Source: the human T2T-CHM13v2.0 reference genome, Homo sapiens | Assembly (NCBI RefSeq): GCF_009914755.1 | Contig: NC_060927.1 | Length of the DNA stretch: 64,000 nt | Reading direction: 5' to 3' (one strand) | Shown here: positions 1 to 55,699 of the stretch, one piece after another | Numbering within the stretch: the first letter of the stretch is position 1 | Layout of the letters: every line of letters begins with the position of its first letter | The notes under the pieces: model-generated | The model's database searches: none | What the model was told of the DNA's origin: nothing | What the model saw: only the letters and a program-made list of their open reading frames with translations | Translations under genes and position numbers: made by a program

Positions 1-1809
1 CTTTTCTGCATCTGTTGAGATAATCATGTGGTTTTTCTCTTTGGTTCTGTTTATATGCTGGATTACATTTATTGATTTGTGTATATTGAACCAGCCTTGC
101 ATCCCAGGGATGAAGCCCACTTGATCATGGTGGATAAGCTTTTTGATGTGCTGCTGGATTCGATTTGCCAGTATTTTATTGAGGATTTTTGCATCAATGT
201 TCATCAAGGATATTGGTTTAAAATTCTCTTTTTTTGGTTGTGTCTGTGCCCGGCTTTGGTATCAGAATGATGCTGGCCTCACAAAATGAGTTAGGGAGGA
301 TTCCCTCTTTTTCTATTGATTGGAATAGTTTCAGAAGGAATGGTACCAGTTCCTCCTTGTACCTCTGGTAGAATTCGGCTGTGAATCCATCTGGTCCTGG
401 ACTCTTTTTCATTGGTAAGCTATTGATTATTGCCACAATTTCAGAGCCTGTTATTGGTCTATTCAGAGATTCAACTTCTTCCTGGTTTAGTCTTGGGAGG
501 GTGTATGTGTCGAGGAATTTATCCATTTCTTCTAGATTTTCTAGTTTGTTTGCATAGAGGTGTTTGTAGTATTCTCTGATGGTAGTTTGTATTTCTGTGG
601 GATCAGTGGTGATATCCCCTTTATCATTTTTTATTGCGTCTATTTGATTCTTCTCTCTTTTTTTCTTTATTAGTCTTGCTAGTGGTCTATCAATTTTGTT
701 GATCTTTTCAAAAAACCAGCTCCTGGATTCATTAACTTTTTGAAGGGTTTTTTGTGTCTCTATTTCCTTCAGTTCTGCTCTGATTTTAGTTATTTCTTGC
801 CTTCTGCTAGCTTTCGAATGTGTTTGCTTTTGCTTTTCTAGTTCTTTTAATTGTGATGTTAGGGTGTCAATTTTGGATCTTTCCTGCTTTCTCTTGTGGG
901 CATTTAGTGCTATAAATTTCCCTCTACACACTGCTTTGAATGCGTCCCAGAGATTCTGGTATGCTGTGTCTTTGTTCTCGTTGGTTTCGAAGAACATGTT
1001 TATTTCTGCCTTCATTTCGCTATATACCCAGTAGTCATTCAGGAGCAGGTTGTTCAATTTCCATGTAGTTGAGCGGCTTTGAGTGAGATTCTTAATCCTG
1101 AGTTCTAGTTTGATTGCACTGTGGTCTGAGAGATAGTTTGTGTAATTTCTGTTCTTTTACATTTGCTGAGGAGAGCTTTACTTCCAACTATGTGGTCAAT
1201 TTTGGAATAGGTGTGGTGTGGTGCTGAAAAAAATGTATATTCTGTTGATATGGGGTGGAGAGTTCTGTAGATGTCTATTAGGTCTGCTTGGTGCAGAGCT
1301 GAGTTCAATTCCTGGATATCCTTGTTGACTTTCTGTCTCGTTGATCTGTCTAATGTTGACAGTGGGGTGTTAAAATCTCCCATTATTAATGTGTGGGAGT
1401 CTAAGTCTCTTTGTAGGTCACTCAGGACTTGCTTTATGAATCTGGGTGCCTCTGTATTGGGTGCATATATATTTAGGATAGTTAGCTCTTCTTGTTGAAT
1501 TGATCCCTTTACCATTATGCAATGGCCTTCCTTGTCTCTTCTGATCTTTGTTGGTTTAAAGTCTGTTTTATCAGAGACTAGGATTGCAACCCCTGCCTTT
1601 TTTTGTTTTCCATTTGCTTGGTAGATCTTCCTCCATCCTTTTATTTTGAGCCTATGTGTGTCTCTGCACGTGAGATGGGTTTCCTGAATACAGCACACTG
1701 ATGGGTCTTGACTCTTTATCCAATTTGCCAGTCTGTGTCTTTTAATTGGAGCATTTAGTCCATTTACATTTAAAGTTAATATTGTTATGTGTGAATTTGA
1801 TCCTGTCAT
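1..1809 (-). pseudogene. L1 ORF2 (endonuclease and linker), frameshifted
   Basis: Starts [12 protein letters not shown] 1-bp deletion near 1141 and a +1 T in the run at 229-235 split it into 234-aa and 279-aa pieces. Confidence 0.93.
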
Positions 1810-1872
1810 TATGATGTTAGCTGGTTATTTTGCTCGTTAGTTGATGCAGTTTCTTCCTAGTCTCGATGGTCT

Positions 1873-2889
1873 TTACATTTTGGCATGATTTTGCAGCGGC
1901 TGGTACCCGTTGTTCCTTTCCATGTTTAGCGCTTCCTTCAGGAGCTCTTTCAGGGCAGGCCTGGTGGTGACAAAATCTCTCAGCATTTGCTTGTCTGTAA
2001 AGTATTTTATTTCTCCTTCACTTATGAAGCTTAGTTTGGCTGGATATGAAATTCTGGGTTGAACATTCTTTTCTTTAAGAATGTTGAATATTGGCCCCCA
2101 CTCTCTTCTGGCTTGTAGAGTTTCTGCCGAGAGATCCACTGTTAGTCTGATGGGCTTCCCTTTGAGGGTAACCCGACCTTTCTCTCTGGCTGCGCTTAAC
2201 ATTTTTTCCTTCATTTCAACTTTGGTGAATCTGACAATTATGTGTCTTGGAGTTGCTCTTCTCGAGGAGTATCTTTGTGGCGTTCTCTGTATTTCCTGAA
2301 TCTGAACGTTGGCCTGCCTTGCTAGATTGGGGAAGTTCTCCTGGATAATATCCTGCAGAGTGTTTTCCAACTTGGTTCCATTCTCCCCATCACTTTCAGG
2401 TACACCAATCAGACGTAGATTTGGTCTTTTCACATAGTCCCATATTTCTTGGAGGCTTTGCTCGTTTCTTTTTATTCTTTTTTCTCTAAACTTCCCTTCT
2501 CGCTTCGTTTCATTCATTTCATCTTCCATTGCTGATACCCTTTCTTCCAGTTGATCACATCGGCTCCTGAGGCTTCTGCATTCTTCACGTAGTTCTCGAG
2601 CCTTGGTTTTCAGCTCCATCAGCTCCTTTAAGCACTTCTCTATATTGGTTATTCTAGTTATACATTCTTCTAAATTTTTTTCAAAGTTTTCAACTTCTTT
2701 GCCTTTGGTTTGAATGTCCTCCCGTAGCTCAGAGTAATTTGATCGTCTGAAGCCTTCTTCTCTCAGCTCGTCAAAGTCATTCTCCGTCCAGCTTTGTTCC
2801 GTTGCTGGTGATGAACTGCGTTCCTCTGGAGGAGGAGAGGCGCTCTGCTTTTTAGAGTTTCCAGTTTTTCTGTTCTGTTTTTTCCCCAT
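1873..2889 (-). CDS. L1 ORF1p (RNA-binding chaperone), intact 338 aa
   Basis: Full-length ORF MGKKQNRK...NHAKM, with REKG, ARR and YPAKLS motifs retained. Confidence 0.93.
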   Translation of the reverse strand: MGKKQNRKTGNSKKQSASPPPEERSSSPATEQSWTENDFDELREEGFRRSNYSELREDIQTKGKEVENFEKNLEECITRITNIEKCLKELMELKTKARELREECRSLRSRCDQLEERVSAMEDEMNETKREGKFREKRIKRNEQSLQEIWDYVKRPNLRLIGVPESDGENGTKLENTLQDIIQENFPNLARQANVQIQEIQRTPQRYSSRRATPRHIIVRFTKVEMKEKMLSAAREKGRVTLKGKPIRLTVDLSAETLQARREWGPIFNILKEKNVQPRISYPAKLSFISEGEIKYFTDKQMLRDFVTTRPALKELLKEALNMERNNGYQPLQNHAKM

Positions 2890-3344
2890 CTTTGTGGTTT
2901 TATCTACTTTTGGTCTTTGATGATGATGATGTACAGATGGGTTTTTGGTGTGGGTGTCCTTTCTGTTTGTTAGTTTTCCTTCTAACAGACAGGACCCTCA
3001 GCTGCAGGTCTGTTGGAGTACCCTGCCATGTGAGGTGTCAGTGTGCCCCTGCTGGGGGGTGCCTCCCAGTTAGGCTGCTCGGTGGTCAGGGGTCAGGGAC
3101 CCACTTGAGGAGGCAGTCTGCCCATTCTCAGATCTCCAGCTGCGTACTGGGAGAACCACTGCTCTCTTCAAAGCTGTCAGACAGGGACATTTAAGTCTGC
3201 AGAGGTTACTGCTGTCTTTTTGTTTGTCTGTGCCCTGCCCCCAGAGGTGGAGCCTACAGAGGCAGGCAGGCCTCCTTGAGCTGTGGTGGGCTCCACCCAG
3301 TTCGAGCTTCCCAGCTGCTTTGTTTATCTAAGCAAGCCTGGGCA

Positions 3345-54343: not shown

Positions 54344-54926
54344 CTTTGTGGTTTTATCTACTTTTGGTCTTTGATGATGGTGTTGTACAGATGGGTTTTT
54401 GGTGTGGATGTCCTTTCTGTTTGTTAGTTTTCCTTCTAACAGACAGGACCCTCAGCTGCAGGTCTGTTGGAGTTTGCTAGAGGTCCACTCCAGACCCTGT
54501 TTGCCTGGATGTCAGCAGCGGTGGCTGCAGAACAGTCGATTTTCGTGAACTGTGAATGCTGCTGTTTGATCGTTTCTCTGGAAGTTTTGTCTCAGAGGAG
54601 TACCCGGTCATGTGAGGTGTCAGTCTGTCCCTACTGGGGTGTGCCTCCCAGGTAGGCTGCTCGGGGGTCAGGGGTCAGGGACCCAGTTGAGGAGGCAGTC
54701 TCCCTGTTCTCAGATCTCCAGCTGCGTGCTGGGAGAACCACTGCTCTCTTCAAAGCTGTCAGACAGGGACATTTAAGTCTGCAGAGGTTACTGCTGTCTT
54801 TTTGTTTGTCTGTGCCCTGCCCCCAGAGGTGGAGCCCACAGAGGCAGGCAGGCCTCCTTGAGCTGTGGTGGGCTCCACCCAGTTCGAGCTTCCTGGCTGC
54901 TTTGTTTACCTAAGCAAGCCTGGGCA

Positions 54927-55217
54927 ATGGTGGGCGCCCCTCCCCCAGCCTCGCTGCTGCCTTGCAGTTTGATCTCAGACTGCTGTGCTAGCAATCAGCG
55001 AGACTCTGTGGGCGTAGGACCCTCTGAGCCAGGTGCGGGATATAATCTCGTGGTACGCCATTTTTTAAGCCCGTCGGAAAAGCGCAGTATTAGGGTGGGA
55101 GTGACCCGATTTTCCAGGTGCCATCCATCACCCCTTTCTTTGACTAGGAAAGGGAACTTCCTGACCCCTTGCGCTTCCGGAGTGAGGCAATGCCTCGCCC
55201 TGCTTCGGCTCGCGTAG
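54927..55217 (+). CDS. L1 ORF0-like antisense ORF (96 aa)
   Basis: MVGAPPPASLLPCSLISDCCASNQRDSVG... Expression is not shown. Confidence 0.6.
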   Translation: MVGAPPPASLLPCSLISDCCASNQRDSVGVGPSEPGAGYNLVVRHFLSPSEKRSIRVGVTRFSRCHPSPLSLTRKGNFLTPCASGVRQCLALLRLA

Positions 55218-55699
55218 GGTGCGCTGCACCCACTGACCTGCGCCCACTGTCTGGCACTCCCTAGTGAGATGAACCCGTTACCTCAGATGGAAATGCAGAA
55301 ATCTCCCATCTTCTGGGTTGCTCACACTGGGAGCTGCAGACCGGAGCTGCAGACCTATTCGACCATCTTGGCTGCCACACTCGCATGATCATGTTTGAGT
55401 GCAATAGCATGATCATGGCTCACTGCAGCCTTGTGTTCCCTGGGCTCAGTTGATCTTCCCACCTCAGCCTCCCAAGTAGTTAGGACTACAGGTGCACATC
55501 ACCATGCCTGGCTAATTTTTATACTTTTGTTGAGATTGTATTTTACCATGTTGCTCAGGCTGGTCTCGAATGCCTGGTCTCAAGCAGTCCACCTGCTTCG
55601 GCCTCCCAAAGTTCTAAGATTATAGAAATAAGCCACTGTGCCAGGCCTACTGCTGGTTTCTTAAAATATAAAGGTATGTTGTTTATTTGAGATATTTCC

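What the first reader, a model, noticed from the sequence alone, without database searches (positions are those of the whole stretch)
1..55382. Two L1s of different subfamilies, 51.45 kb apart, appear to have exchanged sequence by patchwork gene conversion
Seen: L1-A (1-3792) and L1-B (49205-55382) align at an offset of about 51,454 and are identical over 82-395 vs 51536-51849 (314 bp). They share 14 changes that differ from the L1 consensus as I recall it: 14/51468, 37/51491, 163/51617, 218/51672, 246/51700, 282/51736, 548/52001, 815/52268, 1250/52704 (HPK>HPI), 1375/52829, 1541/52995 (KIK>KIR), 2064/53518 (ORF1 NF>NV), 3695/55278, and the same +1 ORF2 frameshift (T7 run, 229-235/51683-51689). 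The L1PA7 copy in this window has the consensus state at nearly all of these sites. Between the shared sites A and B keep opposite subfamily diagnostics (1077, 1088, 1389, 2165, 2716 and the 128-bp UTR indel), one only 14 bp from a shared site. Established: L1 proteins act mainly in cis, so an ORF2-frameshifted master is an unlikely common source. Inference: repeated short-tract conversion between two independent insertions, i.e. local concerted evolution. The CpG at 80-81 decayed differently in each copy, so some tracts are not recent.
Basis: partly seen in the sequence, partly recalled or inferred. Interest (0 to 1): 0.85.

Follow-up and report, generated by a model that had tools for sequence, protein, structure and literature searches.

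The report
Two neighbouring L1s exchanged sequence
Two old, dead, full-length L1 retrotransposons of different subfamilies, lying 51 kb apart on human chromosome 3, share a set of rare mutations found together in no other copy examined, which is best explained by one copy having been partly overwritten by the other (non-allelic gene conversion), a known process that is rarely documented for L1s with the partner in hand.

Summary
L1-A (window -2254..3792) and L1-B (49202-55382) are full-length, same-strand, independent insertions: the flanks are unrelated and B has its own 19-bp target-site duplication.

They belong to different subfamilies along their whole length. About 30 diagnostic substitutions and a 128-bp 5'UTR segment separate them.

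They nonetheless share 15-20 rare alleles, 14-16 of them non-CpG. The 29 other cross-subfamily pairs share 0-4. Nineteen of the 20 alleles lie between -667 and 2138.

Five targeted whole-genome searches found no third copy with the multi-site haplotypes among the 40 candidates scored in each. Single alleles do turn up sporadically elsewhere.

Trees conflict. A and B are sisters in -295..640 (support 0.996) and in 641..2165 (0.987). In the rest of the element A sits with the young copies (1.000) and B with the old ones.

Best reading: DNA-level non-allelic gene conversion, with a core of about 0.9 kb and a patchy zone beyond it. Direction and number of events are unresolved.

The +1 T7 run is a real frameshift, but 15 of 59 other copies carry it.

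This is a new example of a known process. Ape orthologues would settle it.

The parts
1..3792 (-). L1-A, a full-length young-type L1PA that lacks the 128-bp 5'UTR segment. The element continues 2,254 bp left of the window (chr3:40917746-40923792; 6,047 bp).
   Evidence: full extent; best relatives 97%; A has the young state at about 30 diagnostic sites; ORF1 and EN domains.
49202..55382 (-). L1-B, a full-length older-type L1PA that carries the 128-bp 5'UTR segment.
   Evidence: B has the old state at the diagnostic sites. ORF2 residues 1-460 match solved L1 ORF2p, E = 4e-292.
54474..54601 (-). 128-bp 5'UTR segment present in B and in the 5 old-type relatives, absent from A and the 4 young-type relatives. 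It lies where the published L1PA3 129-bp (ZNF93-site) deletion is described.
   Evidence: (element lengths). Published deletion: 10.1101/429613, passages read. Equivalence with that deletion is inferred, not tested.
1..640 (-). Core shared tract in A (extends to -295 outside the window). No retained diagnostic difference. A and B differ by 14 substitutions and 1 indel in 936 bp (1.5%).
   Evidence: A+B sisters, 0.996; 0.995 in the 60-copy tree; the copying model picks B for A at -294..898.
51160..52093 (-). Core shared tract in B, the counterpart of A -295..640.
   Evidence: (the three-allele cluster 51230/51244/51255 occurs only in A and B).
82..395 (-). 314-bp run identical to B 51536-51849. 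It holds shared alleles 163A, 218T, 246G and 282C, the T7G +1 run (229-235) and the young-type state 266A.
51536..51849 (-). The same 314-bp identical run, in B.
641..2165 (-). Patchy zone in A (B 52094-53619). Shared rare alleles at 683, 705, 815, 1250, 1375, 1541, 1951, 2064 and 2138 are interleaved with retained diagnostic differences (662, 1088, 1389, 1861, 1878, 1930) and with private mutations at normal density.
   Evidence: A+B sisters, 0.987.
3695..3695 (-). Isolated shared allele in the 5'UTR (B 55278). It could be chance.
   Evidence: absent from 10 full-length relatives. Control pairs show 0-4 chance coincidences.
1873..2889 (-). A ORF1, intact at 338 aa, carrying the shared NF>NV change (site 2064).
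964..1057 (-). Cluster of 6 A-private substitutions in 94 bp, beside the core tract.
   Evidence: the best other genomic copy has at least 5 mismatches in 131 bp.
49181..49199 (.). B target-site duplication, left copy. The right copy is at 55397-55415. 19 bp with 1 mismatch, inside an Alu.
40633..46755 (-). Older full-length L1PA copy (87.8% identical to A), used as outgroup.

Best explanation
After two separate retrotranspositions, the older-type L1-B and the younger-type L1-A, direct repeats 51.45 kb apart, underwent non-allelic (interlocus) gene conversion. One copy served as template for homologous repair of the other.

The exchange carried the donor's own accumulated mutations into the recipient. 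It produced a core tract of about 0.9 kb in ORF2 (A -295..640), and patchily converted sequence towards the ORF1 end (to about 2165).

Shown: the exclusive sharing, the mosaic structure and the independence of the two insertions.

Inferred:
- the mechanism itself;
- its age, roughly halfway through A's residence, because core divergence is half that of neighbouring ORF2;
- its direction, where B to A is weakly favoured and the perfect 82-395 run may be a later or opposite event;
- whether one discontinuous event or several events occurred.
For: 1. Excess sharing. A and B share 20 pair-exclusive alleles (16 non-CpG), against 0-4 in the 29 other young x old pairs. With a 46-58-copy panel and a 6% frequency cut-off, 15 remain, 14 of them non-CpG.

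2. Exclusivity genome-wide, with 40 candidates scored per search.
- The 64-mer holding 14G and 37C, the 314-mer and the 106-mer holding -224G/-210G/-199C are each 100% matched only in A and B.
- For the 146-mer holding 1250A and 1375A, A matches at 100%, B has 1 mismatch and all others have at least 2.
- For the 211-mer holding 1951C, 2064C and 2138A, the best others have 2 mismatches and carry 2138A only.
- Carriers of single alleles share none of the remaining haplotype.

3. Different subfamilies throughout. A has the young state and B the old state at about 30 substitutions plus the 128-bp indel, from -2191 to 3454.

4. Tree conflict. A+B are sisters at 0.996 in the core and 0.987 in 641..2165. 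In the rest, A falls in the young clade (1.000) and B with an old copy.

5. Mosaic tests.
- Maximum chi-square finds a B-like block in A, with 0 of 200 permutations reaching the observed value for all 4 young 'parents' tried.
- In the copying model, adding the partner gains 41.2 nats (A from B) and 69.2 nats (B from A), against -0.4 to 12.5 for the 58 other cross-group combinations.

6. Independent insertions. The flanks share only short repeats of 70-80% identity, and B has its own 19-bp TSD.

7. Clustering. 19 of the 20 shared alleles lie in -667..2138, the most conserved part of the element. Core divergence is 1.50%, against 2.9-3.1% in the segments beside it.

8. Proximity. Each copy's only partner in a 3.1-Gb genome lies 51 kb away. 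By my arithmetic a dispersal process would give this with probability of about 4e-5.
Against: - No outgroup species, second human assembly or raw reads could be examined. The pre-exchange state is never seen.
- Each genome search scores only 40 of 549-1,422 candidates, and the tool warns that counts are lower bounds. A third carrier could have been missed.
- Outside -1500..1900 the comparison panel is only 9-10 full-length copies. These were chosen as the best hits to A or B, so the rarity of 1951C, 2064C and 3695T rests on few copies.
- The patchy zone would need at least 5 tracts or discontinuous repair. There, shared alleles sit 1-14 bp from differences (1951/1952, 548/554, 1375/1389), and private-mutation density is not reduced.
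- Direction is inconsistent. A has old-like states at -69, 45 and 500, while B has the young-like 266A. In the 60-copy core tree the A+B pair branches between the old and young copies.
- One other copy (L075, an inverted and truncated old-type L1 on C7) carries two of the shared alleles, -224G and -199C. Some shared alleles may therefore be markers of a small lineage rather than post-insertion mutations.
- There is no GC-biased signature: W>S versus S>W is 9:4 among shared alleles and 48:42 among private ones, p = 0.38.
Confidence: 0.78

Rival explanations
1. Shared source lineage. A and B descend from a small side lineage of L1 masters, or from a recombinant master that combined a B-like and a young-type element. 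Under this reading the shared alleles were inherited at insertion, not exchanged afterwards.
For: - L075 (C7) carries -224G and -199C, and three old-type copies carry 2138A. Some shared alleles therefore exist outside A and B.
- A recent preprint screened 2,267 full-length L1 site consensus sequences and removed 35 as recombinant (PMC13192797, passages).
- The genome searches score only 40 candidates each.
Against: - No copy other than A and B carries more than two of the shared alleles in any search.
- A strict tree cannot hold. A shares about 30 derived states and the 128-bp deletion with the mainstream young copies, yet shares 15-20 other alleles with B only. Recombination is needed in any case.
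- A dispersing process would not place the only two carriers 51 kb apart.
Confidence: 0.1
2. Conversion from a third template. Both copies, or one of them, were converted by a third L1 that has since been lost, or by an L1 cDNA or RNA rather than by the neighbouring DNA copy.
For: - In the 60-copy core tree the shared core looks intermediate between old and young types. A transitional donor would explain this.
- cDNA-mediated conversion is reported for yeast Ty elements (mentioned in PMC6598467, passage).
Against: - No such donor is present in the genome.
- Converting both neighbours needs two events instead of one.
- A template acting in trans does not explain the proximity of the two carriers.
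Confidence: 0.06
3. Assembly or polishing artefact. Reads from one L1 were used to correct the other.
For: Nothing from my calls. It is only the general risk for paralogous repeats, and no reads or second assembly were available.
Against: - The copies differ at about 160 sites over 5.3 kb, interleaved with the shared alleles at a scale of tens of bases.
- An artefact would have to copy single bases selectively while leaving neighbours 1-14 bp away untouched.
- From my own knowledge rather than any call: each L1 lies in unique flanks that long reads span.
Confidence: 0.03
4. Chance. The same sites mutated in parallel in both copies.
For: - Sites 683, 705 and 2138 are CpG-type or recurrent, and 14G, 37C, -224G and -199C each recur singly in other copies.
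- Control pairs show 0-4 coincidences.
Against: - 16 non-CpG coincidences, including transversions, against a control mean below 1.
- The shared alleles are clustered, with 19 of 20 in 47% of the length.
- A+B sister support is 0.99 in the converted regions.
Confidence: 0.01

Closest known systems
Non-allelic gene conversion between neighbouring Alu elements (Aleshin and Zhi 2010, as described in PMC6598467; the Alu-Alu screen of PMC8230782)
   Same: - Dispersed retroelement copies of different subfamilies exchange sequence after insertion.
- Non-diagnostic (private) mutations are shared.
- Partial conversion gives hybrid elements.
- The rate depends on distance and identity.
(Passages read.)
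   Different: - These elements are 6-kb L1s, not 300-bp Alus.
- The partners are 51 kb apart, whereas the elevated Alu rate is described for copies under 10 kb apart.
- The tract structure can be seen here: a core of about 0.9 kb plus a patchy zone over about 2.8 kb.
- The donor-recipient pair is identified.
Gene conversion involving L1 elements (Burton et al. [quoted passage not shown]
   Same: One L1 copy is used as template to repair another. Sen et al. describe tracts as small as 13 bp, citing Tremblay (PMC1920257, passage).
   Different: - I saw these papers only as references or second-hand descriptions. Tremblay 2000 is not held.
- They concern mouse loci or cultured cells.
- This case is a fixed germ-line event between two named human loci of different L1PA subfamilies.
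Recombinant or mosaic full-length L1s in human pangenome assemblies (PMC13192797, preprint)
   Same: Full-length L1 sequences that are mosaics of two lineages, detected with 3SEQ and BOOTSCAN. 35 high-confidence or probable recombinants were removed from 2,267 screened (passages).
   Different: - That screen covers young L1s (L1PA2 and L1HS labels) and resolves donor groups, not a neighbouring donor locus.
- It does not separate post-insertion conversion from recombinant sources.
- Its supplementary files were not consulted.
Interlocus gene conversion in segmental duplications and tandem gene families (concerted evolution)
   Same: Reduced divergence within tracts, tree incongruence along the sequence, and dependence on identity and distance (general description in PMC6598467).
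   Different: The paralogs here did not arise by DNA duplication. They are independent retrotranspositions with unrelated flanks, so homology ends at the element borders.

Membership tests
LINE-1 (L1PA) full-length retrotransposon | ORF1p with trimerisation, RRM-like and C-terminal domains | tested here: met
   A ORF1 (338 aa) matches Pfam Tnp_22_trimer, Transposase_22 and Tnp_22_dsRBD, E from 5e-31 to 6e-63. It matches solved LINE-1 ORF1p at E = 1e-138. B's ORF1 is broken.
LINE-1 (L1PA) full-length retrotransposon | ORF2p with APE-type endonuclease and reverse transcriptase | tested here: met
   B ORF2 residues 1-460 align end to end with solved human ORF2p, E = 4e-292. The EN domain is found by Pfam in both A and B. 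The RT part was not scanned on its own. Both ORF2s are interrupted.
LINE-1 (L1PA) full-length retrotransposon | Insertion hallmarks: A-rich 3' tail and target-site duplication | tested here: met
   B has a T-rich tail on the + strand and a 19-bp TSD with 1 mismatch. A has the tail but only a weak 11-bp candidate TSD that is not adjacent to the 5' end, so A is inconclusive.
L1PA3-long/L1PA4 versus L1PA3-short/L1PA2 (the ZNF93-site 129-bp deletion) | Presence or absence of the 129-bp 5'UTR segment | tested here: inconclusive
   B and 5 of 5 old-type relatives carry a 128-column segment that A and 4 of 4 young-type relatives lack. I could not align to reference subfamily consensus sequences, so identity with the published deletion (10.1101/429613) and the exact subfamily names are inferred.
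Non-allelic (interlocus) gene conversion | Paralogs share derived variants absent from other family members, beyond chance | tested here: met
   20 pair-exclusive alleles against 0-4 in 29 control pairs. The haplotypes are exclusive in 5 genome searches.
Non-allelic (interlocus) gene conversion | Phylogenetic incongruence or mosaic structure along the sequence | tested here: met
   Trees, maximum chi-square and the copying model with controls.
Non-allelic (interlocus) gene conversion | The similarity is not due to DNA duplication of the locus | tested here: met
   Flanks are unrelated apart from short dispersed repeats. The TSD is separate. The subfamilies differ.
Non-allelic (interlocus) gene conversion | An unconverted ancestral state seen at the orthologous locus in an outgroup or on another haplotype | not testable with these tools
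   No ape genome, other human assembly or reads are held.
Non-allelic (interlocus) gene conversion | Non-reciprocal transfer with identifiable donor and recipient | tested here: inconclusive
   Weak evidence favours B to A.
- Private load: A has 42 and B has 65 private sites, against 32-54 in young and 65-101 in old relatives.
- A has old-like states at -69, 45 and 500.
- 2138A, and -224G with -199C, are seen on old-type copies.
Against it, B carries the young-like 266A, and the core tree placement is intermediate.

The most novel reading that the evidence does not exclude
The pattern records one long (at least 2.8 kb) heteroduplex between two L1s 51 kb apart. It was repaired discontinuously, completely in a core of about 0.9 kb and patchily on one side, and left an adjacent cluster of new mutations in the recipient (964-1057).

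If this is typical, full-length L1s within tens of kilobases of each other evolve in local concert. That is well beyond the under-10-kb range described for Alus. It would bias L1 age and subfamily calls, and it would mark sites of non-crossover NAHR intermediates in the human germ line.
Probability: 0.2. Interest if true: 0.6.

Novelty: new member of a known kind. Interest (0 to 1): 0.42.

Why it matters
L1 ages, subfamily assignments and source-offspring reconstructions all assume that copies evolve independently after insertion. A clean case in which two named L1 loci 51 kb apart have exchanged 15-20 private mutations shows that this assumption can fail for 6-kb elements at distances larger than those emphasised for Alus.

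The case also supplies a simple signature that could be scanned for across complete assemblies: pair-exclusive rare alleles between neighbours of different subfamilies.

Direct L1 repeats at this spacing are also substrates for deletion and duplication by non-allelic recombination. Conversion without crossover is the silent footprint of the same pairing.

For this locus itself nothing functional is implied. Both elements are dead: ORF2 is broken in both, and only A's ORF1 is intact. The region holds only lncRNA models.

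Tried and rejected
1. Dispersed side lineage. Five targeted own-genome searches and inspection of 28 + 28 + 14 fetched carriers found only single-allele carriers, with one two-allele carrier (L075). Rejected as the main explanation.

2. The frameshift as a private marker. Rejected: T7G is in 15 of 59 other copies. The samples are biased towards A-like words, so its true frequency is unknown.

3. Segmental duplication. Rejected.

4. GC-biased conversion signature. Not significant: odds ratio about 2, p = 0.38.

5. Direction of transfer.
- Core trees gave conflicting placements. In the 12-copy tree the pair sits among old-type copies with weak support (0.74-0.84). In the 60-copy tree it sits between the old and young groups.
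- Private-mutation densities fit either direction.
- I first read the maximum chi-square result as directional. It is not, because the shared alleles make A look B-like whichever way the transfer went.

6. A second, more recent event for the perfect 314-bp run. Given 15 differences in the 958 bp between the retained diagnostic sites at -296 and 662, I estimate by hand that a gap this long has p of about 0.04. Suggestive only.

7. A donor elsewhere for A's private cluster at 964-1057. None found.

8. An apparent third shared allele (548G) in L075. This was an alignment artefact: that copy is inverted and truncated beyond A coordinate 355.

The panel is therefore 9-10 full-length copies plus 53 partial ones.

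11. Literature.
- Searches found no genome-wide study of neighbour L1-L1 conversion in the held library.
- The phrase search returned one paper, and only through a reference title.
- Subscription papers are mostly not held, so this is not proof of absence.
- Supplements of PMC13192797 were not consulted and might list this locus if it was screened.

Full report
WHAT IS THERE

The window is human chr3:40920001-40984000 (T2T-CHM13), and the genome could be searched as G000.

L1-A is not a 3.8-kb piece. With the DNA left of the window fetched, it is a full-length 6,047-bp element at window -2254..3792, on the minus strand. L1-B is a full-length element of about 6,180 bp at 49202-55382, on the same strand.

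The two align at offset 51,454:
- 96.78% identity over 5,277 bp of ORF1, ORF2 and 3'UTR;
- 93.05% over 777 bp of 5'UTR;
- a 128-bp 5'UTR segment present only in B, at 54474-54601.

Both are L1s by protein content.
- A's ORF1 is intact (338 aa) with the three L1 ORF1p Pfam domains. It matches solved ORF1p.
- B's ORF2 residues 1-460 align end to end with solved human ORF2p, E = 4e-292.
- ORF2 is interrupted in both copies and ORF1 is broken in B, so both are dead.

They are independent insertions.
- The flanks share only short 70-80% matches to dispersed repeats.
- B has its own 19-bp target-site duplication inside an Alu.
- A's duplication is unclear.

CHECK OF THE OBSERVATION

- The 314-bp identical run is real.
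- A equals B at the 13 listed sites.
- The amino-acid readings HPK>HPI, KIK>KIR and NF>NV hold.
- The T7 run is a true +1 frameshift.
- The CpG at 80-81 decayed to TG in A and CA in B.
- The older L1PA copy in the window has the common state at 12 of the 13 sites and a gap at the other.

THE COMPARISON SET

The set therefore consists of:
- 9 full-length relatives: 4 best hits to A, called young type here, which lack the 128 bp; and 5 best hits to B, called old type, which have it;
- 53 partial copies covering about -1500..1900;
- a few later targeted fetches.

These copies were chosen by similarity to A or B. They are a biased sample for allele frequencies, but a good one for finding relatives.

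DIFFERENT SUBFAMILIES ALL ALONG

At about 30 substitution sites from -2191 to 3454, and at the 128-bp indel, A has the state of the young copies and B that of the old copies.

The indel lies where the published 129-bp L1PA3 deletion (ZNF93 site) is described (10.1101/429613, passages). B is then of the L1PA3-long/L1PA4 kind and A of the L1PA3-short/L1PA2 kind. I could not test the names against reference models.

SHARED RARE ALLELES

Twenty sites have A = B with a base absent from all 9 full-length relatives: -667, -224, -210, -199, 37, 163, 218, 246, 282, 548, 683, 705, 815, 1250, 1375, 1541, 1951, 2064, 2138 and 3695.
- Sixteen are outside CpG context.
- The same count for the 29 other young x old pairs is 0-4, mean 0.8.
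- With the larger panel and a 6% frequency cut-off, 15 remain, 14 of them non-CpG. Sites 163, 683 and 705 are polymorphic or CpG-like, and 14G is not rare.
- Nineteen of the 20 lie between -667 and 2138, about 47% of the element, running from the end of ORF1 through the EN and RT parts of ORF2.

IS THERE A DISPERSED LINEAGE WITH THESE ALLELES?

Five own-genome searches centred on groups of shared alleles each scored the 40 best of 549-1,422 candidates.

| Query | Shared alleles covered | Result |
|---|---|---|
| 64-mer | 14G, 37C | 100% only in A and B; all 38 others have one mismatch |
| 314-mer | 163A, 218T, 246G, 282C, T7G | 100% only in A and B |
| 106-mer | -224G, -210G, -199C | 100% only in A and B; best others have 2 mismatches |
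| 146-mer | 1250A, 1375A | A 100%, B one mismatch, all others at least 2 |
| 211-mer (A version) | 1951C, 2064C, 2138A | only A at 100%; best three others have 2 mismatches |

Follow-up on the fetched carriers:
- For the 64-mer, 28 of the 38 others were fetched. 22 have 14G alone and 6 have 37C alone. Apart from two single coincidences, none carries any other listed allele.
- For the 314-mer, the two closest other copies fetched carry none (L003) or one (L004) of its four shared alleles. No other copy in the table carries more than one of the four.
- For the 106-mer, 10 of the 11 fetched carry one of the three alleles. One, L075, an inverted and truncated old-type copy on C7, carries two.
- For the 211-mer, the best three others carry only 2138A, on old-type backgrounds.

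The individual alleles therefore recur sporadically, as expected among thousands of copies. The haplotype belongs to A and B alone as far as these searches reach.

The frameshift is different. The same +1 T7G state is in 15 of 59 other copies examined, on several backgrounds.

MOSAIC STRUCTURE

Trees conflict between regions.
- In -295..640, A and B are sisters with support 0.996 (12 copies) and 0.995 (60 copies).
- In 641..2165 they are sisters at 0.987.
- In the remaining roughly 3.5 kb, A lies in the young clade (1.000) and B with an old copy (0.894).

Maximum chi-square finds a B-like block in A from about -326/-69 to 1339/1826. For all four young copies tried as the other parent, 0 of 200 permutations reached the observed value. 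With B as the child the signal is weaker: 8 to 95 of 200 permutations reached it.

A copying model picks B as A's template at -294..898 and 1605..1826. It picks A as B's template over four stretches. Adding the partner gains 41.2 and 69.2 nats, against -0.4 to 12.5 for 58 other cross-group combinations.

ANATOMY OF THE EXCHANGE

- Core, -295..640 (B 51160-52093). No diagnostic difference is retained. There are 14 substitutions and one indel in 936 bp (1.50%), against 2.9-3.1% in the ORF2 segments on either side. Private mutations are about equal in A and B: 4 and 5.
- Patchy zone, 641..2165. Nine shared alleles are interleaved with six or more retained diagnostic differences, and private-mutation density is normal. 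Shared and differing sites can be 1-14 bp apart (1951/1952, 1375/1389). Non-CpG shared alleles fall in at least five intervals bounded by retained diagnostic sites.
- This needs either at least five tracts or one long heteroduplex repaired discontinuously. I cannot tell which.
- The isolated sites -667 and 3695 may be chance.

TIMING (INFERENCE)

If the core was homogenised at once, its divergence is about half that of the neighbouring sequence. The exchange then took place roughly midway through A's residence, which is millions of years ago and not recent. The differently decayed CpG at 80-81 fits this.

The perfect 314-bp run is only mildly surprising given the core's density (my estimate, p about 0.04). 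It may or may not mark a later event.

DIRECTION (UNRESOLVED)

For B to A:
- B has fewer private sites (65) than its 5 relatives (65-101), while A (42) is typical of its own (32-54). Assigning the 20 shared alleles to B normalises both.
- A has old-like states at -69, 45 and 500 that are rare or absent among 26-29 young copies.
- 2138A, and the pair -224G/-199C, occur on old-type copies.

For A to B:
- B carries 266A, otherwise a young-type state, inside the perfect run.

The 60-copy core tree puts the pair between the old and young groups. A GC-biased signature was not significant.

EXPLANATION AND RIVALS

The best explanation is DNA-level non-allelic gene conversion between the two direct repeats (confidence 0.78).

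The shared-source or recombinant-master rival (0.10) still needs recombination. It predicts further carriers, which were not found, and it does not explain why the only two carriers lie 51 kb apart in 3.1 Gb.

A lost third donor or a cDNA template (0.06), an assembly artefact (0.03) and chance (0.01) are less likely. The artefact could not be tested here.

COMPARISON WITH WHAT IS KNOWN

Non-allelic conversion between dispersed retroelements is established for Alus.
- It depends on distance and identity, with elevated rates within 10 kb (PMC6598467, passages).
- A primate screen found 98 clear Alu-Alu cases, 69 of them partial. It notes that sharing of non-diagnostic mutations is frequent (PMC8230782, abstract and passages).

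For L1s I saw only indirect evidence.
- References to Burton et al. 1991 and Tremblay et al. 2000. The latter is not held.
- One intrachromosomal L1 conversion inferred in PMC1920257.
- A 2026 preprint that removes 35 recombinant full-length L1 site consensus sequences out of 2,267 screened, without asking about neighbours (PMC13192797, passages).

My three searches found no genome-wide study of neighbour L1-L1 conversion in the held library. Many subscription papers are missing from it.

VERDICT

It is overstated on the frameshift and on 'repeated short tracts'.

This is a new, unusually clear member of a known kind of event, with no functional consequence evident at this locus. Ape orthologues and other human assemblies would settle mechanism, direction and date.

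Noticed in passing
window 964-1057 (L1-A): Six substitutions private to A fall within 94 bp (964, 989, 998, 1020, 1024, 1057), with more at 736, 829 and 943, just beyond the core shared tract. No other genomic copy comes closer than 5 mismatches in 131 bp. This may be a mutation cluster left by repair synthesis. That is speculation.
   Followed up: partly
window 229-235 and 51683-51689; loci L006-L009, L012, L018, L024, L026-L029, L062, L063, L066, L067: The same +1 insertion in the ORF2 A6 run (T7G on the + strand) recurs in 15 of 59 other L1 copies examined, on different subfamily backgrounds. L024 carries a nearby compensating 1-bp deletion that restores the frame. This looks like a homopolymer hot spot, but the sample is biased towards A-like copies.
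   Followed up: partly
window 1873-2889 (minus strand): A's ORF1 is still an intact 338-codon frame with all three ORF1p domains, although ORF2 is broken in several places.
   Followed up: partly
window 55383-55415: Between B's 5' end and the right copy of its target-site duplication lie 14 extra bases (55383-55396). Part of them repeats the end of the duplication. This is an untidy 5' junction.
   Followed up: no
L085 (G000:C7:34921900-34928200): An inverted and truncated old-type L1 carries two of the A/B shared alleles (-224G and -199C) but none of the others it covers. It may be a relative of B's source lineage.
   Followed up: partly
L083 and L084 (G000:C2:149955699-149956209 and 149857170-149857680); L082/L086 (C14): Three old-type L1 copies share 2138A. 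Two of them lie 98 kb apart on C2 and are 97.06% identical over the 511 bp fetched. Whether they are another neighbour pair with exchange or a duplication was not examined.
   Followed up: no
L070 (G000:C11:87182479-87189609): This old-type full-length relative spans 6,606 bp against about 6,160 bp for its peers, so it holds an insertion of about 450 bp.
   Followed up: no
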